From Patescibacteria group bacterium (lineage in GTDB: Bacteria > Patescibacteriota > Patescibacteriia > UBA1558 > GWA2-36-10), in NCBI GenBank assembly GCA_041665505.1, contig JBAYIR010000004.1:6797-70796 (forward strand): a stretch of 64,000 nt of DNA. The letters are read 5' to 3'. The notes below the pieces were generated by a model, which saw only the letters and a program-made list of their open reading frames with translations, did no database searches and was not told where the DNA came from. Below, piece after piece: positions 23,578 through 57,748 of this stretch. Within the stretch, counting starts at the first letter, position 1. Each line of letters opens with the position of its first letter. A program made the position numbers and the translations under genes.

Positions 23578-23607
23578 TTATATTTTTTTAATAGCAAATT
23601 AAATAAA

Positions 23608-23631
23608 CCGTCCTCAAGTGGCGGTTTTTTT
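23608..23631 (+). terminator. rho-independent terminator of rmuC (ccgtc ctcaagt ggcgg + T7)
   Basis: 5-bp stem (one G-U) followed by ttttttt. Confidence 0.4.
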
Positions 23632-23677
23632 GGGACGGCGGGATTGCCTGGTGGCAATCCCGCCGTCATGCTCTGTG

Positions 23678-24061
23678 CTACGCGTGGCAGAATTGAGCTG
23701 CCACCAGCCGACCCAGGCCATCACTGGCCCAGTTGATGCTGTGGGTTTCCCATTGCCATTGGAAGCCCCTCCGCATTACCAGATCATACATCATTGGGCT
23801 GGCTACTACCGCCACCGGATTGATGTTTAGTGGCCATTCATCACCTTCGCTATCTCCAGCAAATATGAGAGTAGCAATGCCGAGCAGTGTGCCCTTCGGC
23901 AAGTACTGGTTGACGCCACGCCAGGTGGCTCTTCCGTCATCCATTTGGAAGATAGCGATATCAAAGGGATAAATATTGTCCCTTGCGGTGTAAGTAGAAG
24001 TGATGTCTTCTTCCATTTGGAACCAGGGCAGCTGATTGATCTGGATATTCTGGGTGTTCAT
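23678..24061 (-). CDS. hypothetical protein encoded in GC-rich island A (start at second Met, preceded by GGAGGT SD)
   Basis: 127-aa ORF MNTQNIQINQLPWF...; GGAGG 5 nt upstream of the ATG; GC content far above the backbone; no family recognised. Confidence 0.4.
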   Translation of the reverse strand: MNTQNIQINQLPWFQMEEDITSTYTARDNIYPFDIAIFQMDDGRATWRGVNQYLPKGTLLGIATLIFAGDSEGDEWPLNINPVAVVASPMMYDLVMRRGFQWQWETHSINWASDGLGRLVAAQFCHA

Positions 24062-24355
24062 GACAACCTCCATCAGTTATCGCACTGATTGGGCGTGACA
24101 GGGTTGAACTGTCAGGGGGTGGATGCTGCTCGTAGCAAATTCAATGAGCAGCACATTAGTTTCCATTAGTTGAAAAATACTGTGCTACCCATTGATATTT
24201 AATGTGAAAGAGCTAGATTAATATAGAATTATAGCATATTTTGTTTATTTTGTCAATGTTTAGTAGTATATAGTAGCTAGTATAATATTAAAAAAGTATT
24301 GACTTTTTCAAGTTTAGCGGTTATAATGTAGCCGCTTTTTGTTTATTATAAATTT

Positions 24356-39233: not shown

Positions 39234-39379
39234 AAATTTTATATATTGACTATTTGGCTAAGGTATGATACAATTTTCCTTCATTATAGAATGTGCTATT
39301 AGAAGCTCAGTTAAAATAAGATGTAATAAATTACCAATTATTTTATCTGGGCTGCTAGTCAGCTCAATTAGTTCAATTC

Positions 39380-39925
39380 ATGACAGGACTGTCTTCTACA
39401 GGAGGTTGGCTCTTGAATAAGTGTTACGATGCCACTGGCGCCCCGTGCATGGATGGAGATTATTTTCCGCTTTTTCATGCGAAAGTAATCTCCATGTGTG
39501 GTCGGCTTGTTGACTTACTCCCTCAACCTGGGGGTGCCAAAACCCTCAGAACAGCCAATCTCTCGGCTCATGAGTTTGCCGGCAGATTCGTCAGCGTTTC
39601 TGTCGCCAAGCATGGTATCAGAACTATCGTCATTGGCACCCACCTTCAATGTGCCGCCTACGAGAAGTTTGGGCTTTCTTTGTCCGAAGAAGAAGCACTC
39701 CAGCGCCAGCATATTGAGAGAGCAGTTCGCTTTCTTAATGATTACGTCCCGATGGGGATCCAACACTACCTCAAGGAGGAAAAACTTCCCGAGCATGAAG
39801 TGCAGAACTTGGAGACCGTTTTGGAGAGCGGTATAATCATCCAAGCTCTGCTCATCAAGCCGTACGATATGTCGCGGCGCATCAAGGAACCTTCTGAAGA
39901 GTGTTTTGTGGAGCAAGTGCTCTGA
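39380..39925 (+). CDS. hypothetical protein encoded in GC-rich island B (alternative TTG start at 39413 preceded by AGGAGG with a 7-nt spacer)
   Basis: 170-181 aa ORF; GC content far above the backbone; canonical SD; followed by its own terminator; no family recognised. Confidence 0.4.
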   Translation: MTGLSSTGGWLLNKCYDATGAPCMDGDYFPLFHAKVISMCGRLVDLLPQPGGAKTLRTANLSAHEFAGRFVSVSVAKHGIRTIVIGTHLQCAAYEKFGLSLSEEEALQRQHIERAVRFLNDYVPMGIQHYLKEEKLPEHEVQNLETVLESGIIIQALLIKPYDMSRRIKEPSEECFVEQVL

Positions 39926-40010
39926 CCTACAATGTCCTTTTCATTTTTGTTGCCACCGCCCTTATCACTGGTGGCCCAGTTCTATACTTCTGCCCAAGCG
40001 CGGGCAGGGG

Positions 40011-40047
40011 ACTCTCGTCTTTAGAGGGCAGACGAGAGTTTTTTTTA
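40011..40047 (+). terminator. rho-independent terminator after the island B gene
   Basis: actctcgtc tttagagggca gacgagagt + ttttttttt (perfect 9-bp stem + T9); preceded by a second hairpin ctgcccaagcgcgggcag. Confidence 0.7.
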
Positions 40048-40080
40048 CTTTTGATTTTTCTATTGTTATGCGCTAAAATT

Positions 40081-43351: not shown

Positions 43352-43419
43352 GTTCATTTGAAATAAAATATTTTTAGAAGGAATTGTCCGTCACTGTTCA
43401 CTCGCACAGGGAGGTAGTC

Positions 43420-43707
43420 ATGTCTGAAGCCGTCGCTTACATCAAAATCATTGATACTCCTTCGGGAGAGGAAAACCTGCTCGCGCGTCATGAGTTTCAA
43501 GACTTGGTCTTACCGACCATCACCCCCAACGGTCAGCAAGTTGGCTACTACGTCGTCTATCTTTTGGATGCTCTGCCCATCATCAACGCGGAGCGCCCAC
43601 TCTTGGCCGAATGGCTCAAAGAGAAGTATCCAGAAGAGCAAGATCGCTCTAGTATCCGTCTCATTTTTGAGGCAACAGTCTGCCAAGAGACGATGGCCTT
43701 GGTATAG
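43420..43707 (+). CDS. hypothetical protein encoded in GC-rich island C (AGGGAGG SD 6 nt upstream)
   Basis: 95-aa ORF MSEAVAYIKIIDTPSGEENLL...; GC content far above the backbone; no family recognised. Confidence 0.4.
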   Translation: MSEAVAYIKIIDTPSGEENLLARHEFQDLVLPTITPNGQQVGYYVVYLLDALPIINAERPLLAEWLKEKYPEEQDRSSIRLIFEATVCQETMALV

Positions 43708-43735
43708 CAGATAGCAACGCTCGGCTGATGACAGT

Positions 43736-43766
43736 GGCGAAGCTGGGTTCAAACCCCAGCTTCGCC
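43736..43766 (+). terminator. 12-bp perfect hairpin (ggcgaagctggg ttcaaac cccagcttcgcc) after the island C gene
   Basis: Perfect inverted repeat; loop resembles a tRNA T-loop; weak downstream U-tract. Confidence 0.45.
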
Positions 43767-43815
43767 TCCTACTAAAAGTATTTTATTTGGAGCTTAATTT
43801 ACTTACTTACGAGGA

Positions 43816-53668: not shown

Positions 53669-53679
53669 ATAATTTTGTA

Positions 53680-53738
53680 GGGAGCTCTGGCTAGTCGGCC
53701 GAGCGTTTGAACCTCGTAATAATAAATAATATGGCAAA
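53680..53738 (+). promoter_or_regulatory. 59-bp leader element, copy 1 (identical copy before rplA), includes the rplK start codon
   Basis: gggagctctggctagtcggccgagcgtttgaacctcgtaataataaataatatggcaaa is repeated exactly at 54198..54256. Confidence 0.5.
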
Positions 53739-54156
53739 GAAAATCAAACAAATGGTTAAGTTGCAACTCCAAGCTGGTAAAGCTACTCCAGCTCCTCCAG
53801 TAGGAACTGCGCTTGGACCACATGGCTTAGACATTCAATCTTTTTGTGTACAATTTAATGAAGCCACCAAAGATCGTATGGGTGAAGTAGTACCTATAGA
53901 TTTGGCAATTTATGAAGACAGAACTTTTTCTTTTGTCTTAAAAACTGCCCCAGCTTCTGATATGATTAAGAAAAAACTTAATCTAAAAAAAGGTTCTGGT
54001 AGTCCACTGCAACAAAAAATTGCTACTCTAACTAAAGCACAATTGACTGAAATTGCTTTGGCTAAAATGCCGGATTTAAATACTAAGGATGTTGAAAAAG
54101 CCAAACTTATAATTGCTGGTACGGCTCGTCAAATGGGAGTAAAGATAGAAGAATAA
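53731..54156 (+). CDS. rplK: 50S ribosomal protein L11
   Basis: MAKKIKQMVKLQLQAGKATPAPPVGTALGPHGL. Confidence 0.85.
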   Translation: MAKKIKQMVKLQLQAGKATPAPPVGTALGPHGLDIQSFCVQFNEATKDRMGEVVPIDLAIYEDRTFSFVLKTAPASDMIKKKLNLKKGSGSPLQQKIATLTKAQLTEIALAKMPDLNTKDVEKAKLIIAGTARQMGVKIEE

Positions 54157-54197
54157 TAATTTTGTCCCTCCTTCGCCAAGGCTATGGAGGACAAGAG

Positions 54198-54256
54198 GGA
54201 GCTCTGGCTAGTCGGCCGAGCGTTTGAACCTCGTAATAATAAATAATATGGCAAAA
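54198..54256 (+). promoter_or_regulatory. 59-bp leader element, copy 2, includes the rplA start codon
   Basis: Exact repeat of 53680..53738. Confidence 0.5.
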
Positions 54257-54934
54257 ATAAGTAAGAGATTAAAAGAGGCTAAAGCCAAGATTGAAAGCAA
54301 AAAGGTTTATAGTATCGAAGAGGCTATCAAGTTGGTCAAGGAAACTAGCGCAGTAAAATTTGATGCTTCTGTAGAAGTGCACGCCAAATTGGGTATTGAT
54401 CCCAAAAAAGGTGAGCAAATTGTCAGAGCTTCTGTGGTCTTGCCAAATGGTACTGGTAAGACAGTCAGAGTAGCTGCTTTTGTACCAGAGAATCGGGTCA
54501 AAGAAGCTAAAGACGCTGGGGCTGATTTGGTAGGTGGCGAAGAATTGATTGCTGAAATCAAGAAAACATCTAAAACAGATTTTGATATTGCGGTTACTGT
54601 GCCAGAAATGATGCCTAAGTTAGCAGCTGTAGCCAAAGTATTAGGTCAAAAAGGTCTAATGCCTAACCCCAAGACTGGTACAATTAGTCCAGATTTAGCT
54701 AAAATGGTTGGTGAACTTAAAAAAGGTAAAGTATCTTATAAAAATGATATTACCGCTAATATTCATTTGAGTATTGGTAAAGTATCTTTTGATGATGCTA
54801 AATTGATTGAGAATTTTAAAACATTTTTAGACTCTCTAAAAAAATCTAAACCACCAACTGTCAAAGCCACTTATATTAGATCCTTATTTGTTTCTTCATC
54901 TATGGGGCCTAGTATCAAGGTAAGTATAAATTAA
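54248..54934 (+). CDS. rplA: 50S ribosomal protein L1
   Basis: MAKISKRLKEAKAKIESKKVYSIEEAIKLVKE... L1 family. Confidence 0.85.
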   Translation: MAKISKRLKEAKAKIESKKVYSIEEAIKLVKETSAVKFDASVEVHAKLGIDPKKGEQIVRASVVLPNGTGKTVRVAAFVPENRVKEAKDAGADLVGGEELIAEIKKTSKTDFDIAVTVPEMMPKLAAVAKVLGQKGLMPNPKTGTISPDLAKMVGELKKGKVSYKNDITANIHLSIGKVSFDDAKLIENFKTFLDSLKKSKPPTVKATYIRSLFVSSSMGPSIKVSIN

Positions 54935-55227: not shown

Positions 55228-55548
55228 TCAACGCAAACCTTTCCCGCGGGAAGGTCTGTTATGATGATTTAGTTTATTTAGCATCAATTTATAGCCACTC
55301 ATACCATTATTAAGCCATTTAGAAATACGAGCCACAGTAGTAGAACTTAGGCCAGTTTTTTGGACTATTTGAGTATAGGGAATATTTTTATCTAGCATTT
55401 GAGCAGCTTGCCAACGATTAGAAAATTCTGTGATTTCTGACTCTGTCAAAAGGTCACGCAAAAATAGTTTGGCTTCTTTTTGATTGTCTAAAGCTAATAT
55501 AGCATCAAATAGCTTAATTATTTTTTTATCGTATTTCATATTAATCAC
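55228..55548 (-). CDS. TrpR-like (YerC/YecD family) DNA-binding protein
   Basis: LTESEITEFSNRWQAAQMLDKNIPYTQIVQKTGLSSTTVARISKWL helix-turn-helix of the Trp-repressor-like family. Confidence 0.55.
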   Translation of the reverse strand: MINMKYDKKIIKLFDAILALDNQKEAKLFLRDLLTESEITEFSNRWQAAQMLDKNIPYTQIVQKTGLSSTTVARISKWLNNGMSGYKLMLNKLNHHNRPSRGKGLR

Positions 55549-55608
55549 TTTAGTTAAGTAAAGTATAGCATATAAAAAAAATATGTCAATATTTTTAAAA
55601 AAAGGAAA

Positions 55609-55633
55609 CCCGCCGCGTCAGACGCGGCGGGTT
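55609..55633 (-). terminator. rho-independent terminator of the island D two-gene unit (minus strand)
   Basis: acccgccgcg tcaga cgcggcgggt 10-bp stem followed on the minus strand by ttcctttttttaaaaa. Confidence 0.6.
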
Positions 55634-55658
55634 CAAACAGCGTGTCGTGGTCGATAGT

Positions 55659-55883
55659 TTAGCGACCACGCAAGCCAAGACGAGCTCTCTGTCGGAGCAG
55701 CTGCAGGTGAGCAAGGCGGGGATTGTTGGGCCGACTGACTGGTGGGCAGTCGCGACAGCGGAAAGGGTGAAGTACTGAGACGCTTTTGGTCTTAGGCTCT
55801 CCTTTCAAGACTGTCAAGCGACCCAAGCTGTCTTGACGGAATGTCCGCCTACAGCCCCCGATACACAGGAGTAGTGTGGGCAT
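55659..55883 (-). CDS. small Cys-containing, Arg-rich hypothetical protein (island D, gene 2; AGGAGG SD overlaps the upstream stop)
   Basis: 74 aa with CIGGC...CRDC; AGGAGG 5 nt before the ATG; GC-rich. Confidence 0.3.
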   Translation of the reverse strand: MPTLLLCIGGCRRTFRQDSLGRLTVLKGEPKTKSVSVLHPFRCRDCPPVSRPNNPRLAHLQLLRQRARLGLRGR

Positions 55884-55892
55884 GAAGACCTC

Positions 55893-56099
55893 CTAGGAAG
55901 TGAATCGTTGACGAGCCGAGGGAACACCGGCTAGCGTTTTGAGTTGTCTCCTGATGTCACAGTCGTTCAGACAGCCACTGGTGCGGCCGATAACTGTGGC
56001 GATAGCACTTAGTGGTGTAGAGGGATTAGCAATAGCGCCGATACATTGTTGGCAGTTTACCCGGGGGATTTTGGTCTGGGCGACCTTTATAGACTTCAT
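55893..56099 (-). CDS. small Cys-containing hypothetical protein (island D, gene 1; start at the Met preceded by GAAAGG SD)
   Basis: 68 aa with CQQC...GCLNDC; the ORF track starts earlier at 56195, but a sigma70-like promoter falls inside that extension. Confidence 0.3.
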   Translation of the reverse strand: MKSIKVAQTKIPRVNCQQCIGAIANPSTPLSAIATVIGRTSGCLNDCDIRRQLKTLAGVPSARQRFTS

Positions 56100-56150
56100 A
56101 TTAAGCCTTTCGGTTTTGGGTATTTTGTCGTCTCTTAGGTGCTTGCTTAT

Positions 56151-56179
56151 ATGGTAAAATTTACTGATAATTTTGTCAA
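56151..56179 (-). promoter_or_regulatory. candidate sigma70-type promoter for the island D unit (TTGACA-17 nt-TACCAT on the minus strand)
   Basis: Minus-strand ttgacaaaattatcagtaaattttaccat about 50 nt upstream of the SD/ATG at 56099. Confidence 0.3.
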
Positions 56180-56257
56180 CATTTATATTTGCCATATTTT
56201 AAGGCTTATGTTAAATTAGCTGTATTAAATTAATTTATTATTTATGGAGTTAAATAT

Positions 56258-57748
56258 ATGGAATTAGTATTTAAAATAAAAGAAAATCAAGAAGCAGAGG
56301 CTTTATTTGTGCCCGCCTTTCAAGATGACAAAGCTATTATAGCTCTACTTAGGTCTTTCAATTTTCCAAATAGTCAAGATATTTTAATTCGTCTTAGTAA
56401 GGAAAATTTTAAAGGTCTTAAAGGTCAATTGTTTGCTGTCCATAGTGCTAAACAAATTGTAGTTTTTATTGGGGCTGGACCAAGTAAGAAATTATCAGCT
56501 GAAGATTTGAGGTTACTAGCTGGTTATATAGTGTCTCATTTGAAAAAATACAAGACCACTAACATTGGTCTAGTAGCTAAACATTGGCTCAGAGGAACTA
56601 GTGAGGTCAGTCTTTTGGCCCAATCATTGGCTGAGGGGCTATATTTGGCTAGTTATAATTTTGATAAATATAAAACACAGGATCAAGAAAATATAAAAGT
56701 AAATATTGAAAAATTATTTGTTGATATTGATAATAAATTTAAAAATAAATTTAAAGAGGCTTGGCAACTTGGTTTGTTGATGGCTCAAGGCACTATCAAA
56801 GCCAGAGATTTGGTCAACGAACCAGCTGGACACATGACCCCTAGTTTTTTAGCCGATGAAGCAATGGCTATTGCTAAGGTCAATAAAAATATAATAGTCA
56901 AAGTTTTTGATAAAGAAAAAATTGAAGCTATGGGTATGGGGGCTTTTTTGGGCATTGCCCAAGGCTCCAATCAAGCTCCCAAGTTTATACATTTAATCTA
57001 TAAACCAGCCGGCAAAATCAAAGACAAAATAGCTTTAGTTGGTAAAGGTATTACTTTTGATAGTGGTGGTTTAAATGTTAAACCTTGGGAGGGAATGTTG
57101 CAGATGAAGATAGATATGGGTGGAGCGGCTACAGTCTTTGGAGTTTTTTCAGTTATAGCTAAAATCCAGCCCAAAGTAGAAGTACATGGTATTATTGCGG
57201 CTTGTGAAAATATGTCTTCAGGTTCAGCTATTAAGCCAGGTGATATCTTGACTAATATGCAAGGTAAGACTATTGAGATTGCCAATACTGATGCTGAAGG
57301 CCGGGTTACTTTAGCAGATTCTTTGGCTTATGCTCAAAAGCAAGGCATTAAAAAAATGGTGGATATTGCTACACTAACAGGCTCTATTATGGTGGCTCTG
57401 GGTTCACAATATGCTGGATTATTTAGTCTAGACTCAAAAATGTCTCAAGGTATTCTCAAATCAGCTCAAAAAACAGGGGAGAATATGTGGCAAATGCCTA
57501 TGGCTTTGGAGTATAAAGAGGCCAATGAAAGTAAAATAGCAGATATTAAAAATATTGGTAGTTCTAGATTGGGTGGTTCTATTATGGCAGCTTGGTTTCT
57601 TCAGGATTTTATCAGTGACGGCGCATCTTTGGTCCATATTGATATTGCTGGCCCAGCTTACGCTGAAAAAGAGATGAATTCATATATTCCAGTTGGTGGA
57701 GTAGGTTTTGGAGTGCGCACTATGCTTGATTGGCTCAAAAGTATTTAG
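56258..57748 (+). CDS. pepA: leucyl aminopeptidase (M17)
   Basis: VGKGITFDSGGLNVKP and NTDAEGRVTLAD M17 signatures. Confidence 0.85.
   Translation: MELVFKIKENQEAEALFVPAFQDDKAIIALLRSFNFPNSQDILIRLSKENFKGLKGQLFAVHSAKQIVVFIGAGPSKKLSAEDLRLLAGYIVSHLKKYKTTNIGLVAKHWLRGTSEVSLLAQSLAEGLYLASYNFDKYKTQDQENIKVNIEKLFVDIDNKFKNKFKEAWQLGLLMAQGTIKARDLVNEPAGHMTPSFLADEAMAIAKVNKNIIVKVFDKEKIEAMGMGAFLGIAQGSNQAPKFIHLIYKPAGKIKDKIALVGKGITFDSGGLNVKPWEGMLQMKIDMGGAATVFGVFSVIAKIQPKVEVHGIIAACENMSSGSAIKPGDILTNMQGKTIEIANTDAEGRVTLADSLAYAQKQGIKKMVDIATLTGSIMVALGSQYAGLFSLDSKMSQGILKSAQKTGENMWQMPMALEYKEANESKIADIKNIGSSRLGGSIMAAWFLQDFISDGASLVHIDIAGPAYAEKEMNSYIPVGGVGFGVRTMLDWLKSI

What the first reader, a model, noticed from the sequence alone, without database searches (positions are those of the whole stretch)
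55590..56179. GC-rich island D: promoter-SD-two small Cys proteins-terminator cassette on the minus strand next to a TrpR-like gene
The minus strand reads TTGACA-17-TACCAT, then GAAAGG-ATG, then a 68-aa ORF with CQQC...GCLNDC. Its TAG stop overlaps AGGAGG-ATG of a 74-aa ORF with CIGGC...CRDC and an Arg-rich tail. A 10-bp GC hairpin plus U-tract follows. Each protein has four Cys in paired spacing, as in zinc ribbons or small metal-binding proteins. The GC-rich body breaks the conserved rplKA-rplJL-rpoBC synteny region. I tested and disfavoured an RNase P or tmRNA identity (see rejected list).
Basis: partly seen in the sequence, partly recalled or inferred. Interest (0 to 1): 0.6.

Follow-up and report, generated by a model that had tools for sequence, protein, structure and literature searches.

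The report
Two-gene operon for small cysteine proteins
The GC-rich patch is a real, self-contained two-gene operon for two tiny, basic, four-cysteine proteins found only in a few related Komeilibacteria (candidate-phyla-radiation bacteria); it is not a structured RNA, and what the proteins do is still unknown.

Summary
On the minus strand lie a TTGACA-17-TACCAT promoter, GAAAGG-ATG, a 68-aa ORF (56099..55893), a TAG stop overlapping AGGAGG, a 74-aa ORF (55883..55659) and a 13-bp terminator.

Comparative data support coding:
- Homologous cassettes sit at the same site, upstream of pepA, in relatives whose PepA is 92% and 71% identical.
- Both reading frames, all eight cysteines, both Shine-Dalgarno (SD) sites and the promoter are kept.
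- dN/dS is 0.30-0.34 for ORF1 and 0.00-0.24 for ORF2. Against L004, all 8 ORF2 substitutions are synonymous (p = 2.5e-4).

No Rfam family matches, and there is no net covariation for an RNA fold. ORF1 and ORF2 share a frame in the window but not in L011, so TAG read-through is excluded.

The cassette is dispensable. It is absent from one 92% relative and from others at 66-67%, and it is reduced to a frameshifted ORF1 remnant in another lineage. No homologues exist outside this clade, and structure models are low-confidence, so function is inferred only: probably a zinc-binding, nucleic-acid-binding pair.

One oddity remains. Synonymous-site GC is about 0.5 against 0.24 in host genes, although synonymous divergence equals that of the flanks.

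This is a lineage-specific orphan operon of modest interest.

The parts
56151..56179 (-). Sigma-70-type promoter: TTGACA, 17 nt, TACCAT
   Evidence: The promoter scan scores it 10 of 12. The -35 TTGACA and a -10 of TAYCAT or TAAAAT are kept at the same place in L004, L011, L008 and L012.
56100..56145 (-). 5' untranslated leader of about 45 nt with the SD GAAAGG (56111-56106)
   Evidence: Read from the sequence. A purine-rich SD lies 6-9 nt before the ATG in all homologues (GAAAGG, GGGAG, AAGGGG). A 1-nt indel here in L004 rules out the 100-aa extension.
55893..56099 (-). ORF1: 68-aa basic (pI 10.5) protein with C16-x2-C19 ... C43-x3-C47, predicted helical
   Evidence: Listed. It has the same length (68 aa) and no indels in L004 (85% identity) and L011 (53% identity), and all 4 Cys are invariant. 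dN/dS is 0.30-0.34. The AF2 model has 4 helices but a pLDDT of only 60.
55889..55895 (-). TAGGAGG: the ORF1 stop codon overlapping the SD of ORF2 (translational coupling signal)
   Evidence: TAGGAGG is invariant in the window, L004 and L011, while the spacer and the start codon vary (ATG or GTG).
55659..55883 (-). ORF2: 74-aa very basic (pI 11.8) protein with C7-x3-C11 ... C43-x2-C46 (zinc-ribbon-like) and an Arg-rich C-terminal helix
   Evidence: It is 100% identical in L004 despite 8 nucleotide substitutions (p = 2.5e-4). It is 59-63% identical in L011, with the block RTFRQDSLGRLTVL invariant. dN/dS is 0.00-0.24. The AF2 model shows beta-hairpins plus a C-terminal helix, with pLDDT 56.
55646..55670 (-). 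Small hairpin spanning the ORF2 stop codon
   Evidence: Inverted repeat I4, with 11-nt arms 91% complementary. A hairpin in a shifted register is possible in L004. Its role is unknown.
55597..55634 (-). Intrinsic terminator: 13-bp stem (9 G-C pairs), 3-nt loop, T-run
   Evidence: Found by the terminator scan. It is kept in L004, and L011 has a different GC hairpin plus T-run at the same place. RNAalifold counts 3 compensatory pairs in it.

Best explanation
Island D is a bicistronic, protein-coding operon of a Candidatus Komeilibacteria (CPR/Patescibacteria) genome. It has its own sigma-70-type promoter and intrinsic terminator.

Shown:
- The operon encodes two lineage-specific small basic proteins, ORF1 (68 aa) and ORF2 (74 aa). 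ORF1 has the pattern CxxC...CxxxC and is predicted helical. ORF2 has CxxxC...CxxC and an Arg-rich tail.
- Both ORFs are under purifying selection.
- The ORF1 stop codon is embedded in the SD of ORF2, which points to coupled translation.
- The operon has co-diverged with its neighbours in the rplA-pepA interval since the split from the relative whose PepA is 71% identical.
- It has been lost or degraded in several lineages, so it is accessory.

Inferred:
- Each protein binds one metal ion, most likely zinc, through its four invariant cysteines.
- The two proteins are made in roughly fixed proportion and act together.
- Their very high pI, and the Arg-rich helix of ORF2, suggest that they bind nucleic acid.
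- The likeliest role is therefore a small regulatory or addiction-type (toxin-antitoxin-like) pair rather than an enzyme.
- The atypical GC content most simply reflects an old acquisition from a GC-richer donor that is only partly ameliorated.

The confidence given applies to the statement as a whole. The shown part (a real, translated, two-gene operon and not an RNA) I would put at about 0.85, and the inferred zinc-binding and nucleic-acid-binding role at about 0.4.
For: Anatomy.

Organism: the best PepA matches are Komeilibacteria.

Homologous cassettes at the same site:
- L004/L005: PepA 92% identical, cassette about 93% identical in nucleotides.
- L011/L009/L010: PepA 71% identical.

Coding signature:
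- ORF2 against L004 has 8 of 8 substitutions synonymous, randomisation p = 2.5e-4. ORF1 has 9 synonymous against 10 non-synonymous codons, p = 0.035.
- Against L011 there are no frame-breaking indels, all 8 Cys are kept, and there are 17 and 21 synonymous codon changes.
- NG86 dN/dS is 0.30 and 0.34 for ORF1, and 0.00 and 0.24 for ORF2.
- The other five frames carry 4-12 stops.

Vertical history: dS between the window and L011 is 1.28-1.38 in the cassette against 1.31-1.57 in pepA and der. Four-fold-site divergence is 0.43-0.44 against 0.49-0.61.

Not an RNA: there are no Rfam hits. The RNAalifold covariation term is +1.83, with many pairs broken in L011.

Charge: pI is 10.5 and 11.8.

Accessory status: the site is empty in L006, L016 and the P0009 contig. 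L012-L015 hold a frameshifted, ORF1-only remnant.
Against: - There is no homologue outside this small clade in 5.8 billion clustered or 1.84 billion representative proteins.
- There is no Pfam, PHROG, NCBIfam or PADLOC hit.
- There is no PDB sequence hit or fold hit. The AF2 models are low-confidence.
- Metal binding, nucleic-acid binding and any toxin-antitoxin-like behaviour therefore rest on sequence pattern and charge alone.
- Only three independent cassette sequences exist, two of them close to each other, so the selection statistics are based on few substitutions.
- Expression is not shown.
- The GC anomaly is not clearly explained by amelioration. Polarised substitutions are 14 GC>AT against 11 AT>GC. 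I estimate, from the host's synonymous-site GC, that host mutation bias would give about 3:1.
Confidence: 0.65

Rival explanations
1. The island is a structured non-coding RNA, or a dual-function RNA whose fold rather than its ORFs is the selected feature. On this view the GC-richness is maintained for RNA structure.
For: - It is a GC-rich island in a 35% GC genome, with its own promoter and terminator.
- The minus-strand fold has z = -3.47 against shuffles, versus -1.41 for the plus strand.
- Synonymous-site GC stays at about 0.5 in two lineages separated by dS of about 1.3.
- GC>AT and AT>GC changes are nearly balanced.
- In L012 the C-terminal half of ORF1 is still well conserved after a frameshift.
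Against: - No Rfam family matches at gathering score or at E<=10, apart from terminator look-alikes.
- The RNAalifold covariation term is positive (+1.83). About a third of the predicted pairs are broken in L011, and the only coherently compensated helix is the terminator.
- Substitutions are concentrated at third codon positions of the two ORF frames: 8 of the 9 in ORF2 against L004, counting the stop-codon change.
- SD sites and start codons are conserved.
Confidence: 0.07
2. The pair is a type II toxin-antitoxin or similar addiction or defence module. One small protein would be toxic and the other would neutralise it and autoregulate the promoter.
For: - Two small co-transcribed genes of about 70 aa are translationally coupled under one promoter.
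- Presence and absence are patchy among close relatives, and the cassette lies in a variable hot spot.
- The composition is atypical.
- The two proteins are under unequal constraint: ORF2 is 100% and ORF1 is 85% identical in L004.
- In L012 the second gene has been lost and the first gene has decayed.
Against: - No PADLOC, Pfam or NCBIfam toxin or antitoxin family matches.
- No homologues exist in any other lineage, phage or plasmid, whereas toxin-antitoxin families are normally widely dispersed.
- The cassette has been inherited vertically at one site rather than moving.
Confidence: 0.15
3. The island is a decaying remnant of horizontally acquired DNA with no present function, and the ORFs are fortuitous or pseudogenes.
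For: - The GC content is foreign: GC3 is 0.52-0.57 against 0.21-0.26 in host genes.
- There are no homologues.
- The cassette has been lost or degraded in several relatives.
- Gene callers skipped ORF2 in every assembly.
Against: - dN/dS is well below 1 in both ORFs over two depths of divergence.
- The cysteines, SD sites, promoter and terminator are all retained across a dS of about 1.3.
Confidence: 0.05
4. ORF1 and ORF2 are one 146-aa protein made by read-through or recoding of the in-frame TAG.
For: In the window and in L004 the two ORFs are in the same frame, separated only by TAG plus three codons.
Against: - In L011 ORF2 starts at a GTG in a different frame from ORF1, yet both proteins are conserved.
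- An invariant AGGAGG sits before the ORF2 start.
- The one substitution in the linker is non-synonymous (GTC to GCC).
- The host genes in the window read normally with the standard code.
Confidence: 0.02

Closest known systems
Small C4 zinc-ribbon or rubredoxin-like proteins (for example the YgiT/MqsA N-terminal zinc ribbon, or the small CPxCG zinc-finger proteins of archaea)
   Same: ORF2 has two cysteine pairs about 31 residues apart (C7, C11 ... C43, C46). AF2 predicts beta-hairpins around the first pair. The protein is small and has a basic tail. The spacing resembles that of rubredoxin and MqsA, which I recall from memory.
   Different: No Pfam, NCBIfam or PDB profile of any zinc-ribbon family matches at E<=1. 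The first knuckle is CxxxC rather than CxxC. Metal binding is untested. The structure model is low-confidence, and the fold search gave nothing.
YacG-type or treble-clef CxxC...CxxxC zinc fingers
   Same: ORF1 has C-x2-C ... C-x3-C, and the second pair sits at the start of a predicted helix followed by a conserved basic stretch (CxxxC-x-[IL]RRQL). The cysteine pattern recalls YacG (C-x2-C-x15-C-x3-C), which I recall from memory.
   Different: The spacer is 23 residues, not 15. Pfam, which contains the YacG model, gives no hit. The predicted fold is all-helical at low confidence, and there is no PDB hit.
Type II toxin-antitoxin operons
   Same: Both are compact two-gene operons of proteins of about 70 aa, with overlapping translation signals, one promoter, and strain-variable presence.
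   Different: There is no homology to any known toxin or antitoxin. The cassette shows no mobility or wide distribution. Toxicity is untested.
Phage 'morons' and other promoter-gene-terminator cassettes of atypical GC content
   Same: The unit is autonomous (promoter, genes, terminator), its GC content differs sharply from its surroundings, and it sits between unrelated genes.
   Different: The context is chromosomal housekeeping genes (secE-nusG-rplK-rplA, pepA, pth, der), not a prophage. There is no phage or plasmid match. Synonymous divergence equals that of the flanks, so the cassette is old and vertically inherited.

Membership tests
Any Rfam RNA family (RNase P, tmRNA, 6S, riboswitches and others) | A covariance-model score at or above the family's gathering threshold | tested here: not met
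   There are 0 hits at gathering score in the whole window and in five related loci. At E<=10 in 55300-56400 only sub-threshold matches appear, nearly all on the terminator hairpin. ARAGORN finds no tmRNA.
Structured non-coding RNA (unclassified) | A conserved secondary structure supported by compensatory base changes across homologues | tested here: not met
   RNAalifold on the window, L004 and L011 gives a covariation term of +1.83 kcal/mol, and many predicted pairs are broken in L011. Only the terminator helix shows coherent compensation. Power is limited, with just 3 sequences.
Protein-coding gene (generic) | The reading frame is conserved, with an excess of synonymous change | tested here: met
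   dN/dS is 0.30-0.34 for ORF1 and 0.00-0.24 for ORF2. ORF2 has 8 of 8 synonymous substitutions, p = 2.5e-4. There are no frame-breaking indels in L004 or L011.
Zinc-ribbon / C4 zinc-binding small proteins | Four invariant metal-ligand cysteines in two pairs | tested here: met
   All four Cys of ORF1 are invariant in 4 sequences, and all four Cys of ORF2 in 3 sequences.
Zinc-ribbon / C4 zinc-binding small proteins | A sequence or fold match to a described zinc-ribbon family | tested here: not met
   Pfam, NCBIfam, PDB profile search and Foldseek give no significant hit. The models have pLDDT 56-60, so the fold test is weak.
Zinc-ribbon / C4 zinc-binding small proteins | Stoichiometric metal binding | not testable with these tools
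   This needs purified protein and metal analysis.
Type II toxin-antitoxin system | Two adjacent, co-transcribed small genes | tested here: met
   The operon has one promoter, a stop codon overlapping the next SD, and one terminator.
Type II toxin-antitoxin system | Homology to a known toxin or antitoxin family | tested here: not met
   PADLOC, Pfam and NCBIfam give no hit at E<=1.
Type II toxin-antitoxin system | Toxicity of one product, neutralised by the other | not testable with these tools
   This needs expression experiments.
Stop-codon read-through or recoded TAG | The downstream ORF stays in frame with the upstream ORF across homologues | tested here: not met
   The ORFs are in frame in the window and L004, but out of frame in L011, where ORF2 starts at GTG.
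Recent horizontally transferred cassette or phage moron | Atypical composition, together with lower divergence than the flanks or a mobile-element context | tested here: not met
   The composition is atypical. However, dS equals that of the flanks at the deep node, the neighbours are housekeeping genes, and there are no phage or plasmid matches. The 19-nt inverted repeat flanking the island belongs to the trpR promoter, which is also present at the empty site in L006.

The most novel reading that the evidence does not exclude
The cassette's high GC content, including at four-fold degenerate sites, may be actively maintained inside a 35% GC genome rather than being a fading trace of transfer. 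The same may hold for the three other GC-rich single-gene islands in the window. That would imply selection at the nucleotide or RNA level on a class of small accessory genes in CPR bacteria, for example on mRNA structure or stability, on a dual RNA and protein function, or through a GC-biased repair process. The ORF1/ORF2 pair would then be a previously undescribed family of zinc-binding, nucleic-acid-binding proteins specific to Komeilibacteria.
Probability: 0.12. Interest if true: 0.55.

Novelty: new member of a known kind. Interest (0 to 1): 0.3.

Why it matters
This is a clean example of a real small-protein operon that automated gene callers largely miss. ORF2 was not called in any of the assemblies examined, and ORF1 was called only with a wrong start or not at all. 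It adds a lineage-specific pair of Cys4 proteins to the poorly known accessory gene pool of CPR bacteria.

It also shows that the rplA-pepA junction is a variable hot spot in Komeilibacteria.

The persistence of about 50% GC at synonymous sites, despite saturating synonymous divergence in a 24% GC3 background, is a small evolutionary puzzle that could be tested with more genomes.

None of this bears on a long-standing open question, and no function can yet be assigned.

Tried and rejected
- **Known RNA families.** Rfam at gathering score and at E<=10, and ARAGORN, found nothing.
- **Conserved RNA fold.** RNAalifold gave no net covariation.
- **TAG read-through into a single 146-aa protein.** Rejected by the frame shift between the ORFs in L011.
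- **The 100-aa form of ORF1.** Rejected because the extension covers the promoter and is frame-broken in L004.
- **Homology searches.** The word-seeded search, exhaustive phmmer over 1.84 billion representatives and a profile search returned only the protein itself, the L011 ORF1 (P0123) and the L012 remnant (P0125). P0122 and P0124 are tandem-repeat proteins whose scores are summed artefacts.
- **Metagenome scan.** Its single hit, L007, is a 17-residue pattern match antisense to a LolA-like gene in 60% GC DNA. It is a chance match.
- **Phage, plasmid and viral-contig searches**, by DNA and by protein, found nothing significant.
- **Domain libraries.** Pfam, PHROGs, NCBIfam and PADLOC gave nothing.
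- **Structure.** AF2 single-sequence models have pLDDT 56-60, and Foldseek against the PDB gave no hit at E<=0.001. PDB profile searches gave E>0.5.
- **Terminal inverted repeats of a mobile element.** The 19-nt and 12-nt inverted repeats flanking the island lie in the trpR promoter. That promoter is present at the empty site in L006 and absent in L011, so they are not element ends.
- **GTDB genome scan with PepA.** It returned only a 45% identical Elusimicrobia locus, which was of no use.
- **Literature searches** returned nothing.

Full report
**What is there.**
Read on the minus strand, window 56179-55597 contains, in order:
- a sigma-70-type promoter, TTGACA-17-TACCAT, at 56179-56151;
- a leader of about 45 nt carrying GAAAGG six bases before an ATG at 56099;
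- a 68-aa ORF ending in TAG at 55895-55893;
- AGGAGG at 55894-55889, overlapping that stop;
- an ATG at 55883 opening a 74-aa ORF that ends at 55659;
- a 13-bp GC hairpin at 55634-55606, followed by a T-run.

The body is 54% GC in a window that averages 35%.

There are two refinements. The mechanically listed 100-aa form of ORF1 is not real: its extension covers the promoter and is frame-broken by a 1-nt indel in a relative. Also, ORF1 and ORF2 lie in the same frame in the window.

**Is it an RNA?**
- Rfam finds nothing at gathering score in the whole 64 kb. At E<=10 in the region it reports only weak terminator look-alikes.
- Five related loci are also blank.
- ARAGORN finds no tRNA or tmRNA.
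- The minus strand folds somewhat better than shuffled sequence (z = -3.47). However, an RNAalifold run on the three available homologues gives a positive covariation term (+1.83), with many pairs broken in the distant homologue. Only the terminator helix is coherently compensated.

**Where it comes from, and its relatives.**
The neighbouring PepA finds Candidatus Komeilibacteria as its best named relatives. The same contig exists as an independent Logan assembly. Looking up contigs that encode close PepA relatives gave a natural comparative series.

| Locus | PepA identity | State of the site upstream of pepA |
|---|---|---|
| L004/L005 | 92% | Same cassette between the trpR-like gene and pepA, about 93% nucleotide identity |
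| L006 | 92%; closer to L004 than to the window | Empty site, 136-bp spacer |
| L011/L009/L010 | 71% | Recognisable cassette directly between rplA and pepA, with no trpR |
| L008 | 70% | Same promoter, two GAAAGG-led ORFs of 68 and 65 aa with cysteines, and a terminator. Only its second ORF resembles the ORF1 family, and weakly (hhalign P = 9e-4, probability 23%) |
| L012-L015 | 66% | Four independent assemblies with identical sequence. They keep the promoter, a frameshifted ORF1 and a terminator, with no ORF2 |
| L016 | 66% | Nothing at the site |
| P0009 contig | 67% | Nothing at the site |

The cassette is therefore an accessory element of a variable rplA-pepA hot spot. The split between rplKA and rplJL is clade-wide and independent of it.

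**Coding evidence.**
- Between the window and L004, ORF2 differs at eight sense positions. All eight changes are synonymous, so the protein is 100% identical (randomisation p = 2.5e-4). ORF1 has nine synonymous and ten non-synonymous codon differences (p = 0.035).
- Against L011, ORF1 has the same length with no indel and is 53% identical. ORF2 has a single two-codon indel and is 59-63% identical. All eight cysteines are invariant, and the block RTFRQDSLGRLTVL is kept through seven synonymous nucleotide changes, as counted by hand on the alignment.
- Nei-Gojobori dN/dS is 0.30 and 0.34 for ORF1, and 0.00 and 0.24 for ORF2. The neighbouring housekeeping genes give 0.04-0.11.
- The promoter hexamers, the purine-rich SD before ORF1 and the TAGGAGG junction are conserved.
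- The other five frames carry 4-12 stops.
- In L011, ORF2 starts at GTG in a different frame from ORF1. The shared frame in the window is therefore incidental, and TAG read-through is excluded.

**History and composition.**
- Synonymous divergence of the cassette equals that of its neighbours at the deep node: dS is 1.28-1.38 against 1.31-1.57. Four-fold sites differ at 0.43-0.44 against 0.49-0.61.
- The cassette has therefore been inherited vertically since the ancestor of the window and L011 lineages, and was lost in L006 and others.
- GC3 is nevertheless 0.52-0.59 in all copies, against 0.21-0.28 in host genes. Four-fold GC is 0.48-0.50 against 0.24.
- Substitutions between the window and L004, polarised with L011, run 14 GC>AT to 11 AT>GC.
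- My rough two-state calculation shows that an ancestor with GC3 of about 0.75, half-way ameliorated, would also fit. Ordinary old transfer is therefore the default reading, and active maintenance of GC remains an open minority possibility.

**What the proteins are.**
No relative exists outside this clade in any search:
- the word-seeded search;
- exhaustive phmmer over 1.84 billion representatives (the two large hits are tandem-repeat artefacts);
- the profile search;
- metagenome and viral contig scans (the one metagenome hit is antisense to a LolA-like gene);
- phage and plasmid collections.

Pfam, PHROGs, NCBIfam and PADLOC are blank. PDB profile searches are blank as well.

The AF2 single-sequence models are weak, and Foldseek finds nothing:
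- ORF2: pLDDT 56, N-terminal beta-hairpins plus a C-terminal helix.
- ORF1: pLDDT 60, four short helices.

Both proteins are strongly basic, with pI 10.5 and 11.8.

From the invariant Cys4 patterns, the charge and the coupled translation, I infer a pair of metal-binding (probably zinc-binding), nucleic-acid-binding small proteins that act together. A regulatory or toxin-antitoxin-like role is the likeliest guess. This part is inference, not demonstration.

**Verdict.**
The feature is a lineage-specific orphan operon: a new family of a familiar kind (small Cys4 proteins), accessory, and of unknown function. Interest is modest. The only surprising element is the persistently high synonymous-site GC.

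Noticed in passing
window 53679-53743 and 54196-54260 (+ strand): A 65-nt direct repeat, 97% identical, lies immediately upstream of both rplK and rplA and runs into the first codons. Its GC-rich 5' part (AGGGAGCTCTGGCTAGTCGGCCGAGCG...) can form a hairpin. It recurs before both genes in L012/L013 with compensatory changes (CTGGC/GCCGAG becomes TTAGC/GCTGAG). It is probably an r-protein (L1 or L11) autoregulatory leader present in two copies. Rfam gives no match.
   Followed up: partly
window 23591-24190, 39351-40060, 43381-43790: Three further GC-rich islands (about 50% GC, GC3 0.54-0.60) each hold one clear ORF, and two of them have a GC hairpin terminator. Island A holds a 127/131-aa ORF on the minus strand. 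Island B holds a 181-aa ORF with a weak Pro_CA_2 hit (E = 3.7e-8). Island C holds a 95-aa ORF with a GGAGG SD. None matches PHROGs, NCBIfam or PADLOC.
   Followed up: partly
window 1-64000: No tRNA, tmRNA or Rfam family at gathering score is found anywhere in the 64 kb. This is unusual for a stretch of that length but was not pursued.
   Followed up: no
L006 787-1963; L008 1187-2560; P0009 and P0010 contigs: The rplA-pepA interval is a hot spot for variable content. L006 and the two JGI contigs carry an LDcluster4-domain gene plus a gene of 211-290 aa. L008 carries a CDP-alcohol phosphatidyltransferase gene and a second GC-rich block (45-55% GC) of SD-led small ORFs (66 aa, 71 aa and more). 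The trpR-like gene itself is present or absent.
   Followed up: partly
L012 3082-3503 (identical in L013, L014 and L015): A remnant cassette keeps its promoter, a frameshifted ORF1 and a terminator. The ORF1 C-terminal half is still well conserved in the old frame. ORF2 is absent. The remnant is identical in four independent assemblies, so the frameshift is real. Gene callers annotated it as a 109-aa protein (P0125) that reads through the terminator.
   Followed up: yes
window 55562-55589 (minus strand): The trpR-like gene (YerC/YecD-type, Pfam Trp_repressor E = 2.5e-20) has a near-consensus extended -10 promoter, TTGACA-16-TG-TATACT, directly after the island's terminator. This promoter is conserved in L004, L006 and L008.
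   Followed up: partly
window 55659-56099 compared with L004: At the shallow node, the cassette's synonymous divergence (dS 0.15-0.26) is lower than that of the flanking genes (0.36-0.82). At the deep node it equals them. This could reflect synonymous-site constraint, or a recombination event between the window and L004 lineages.
   Followed up: no
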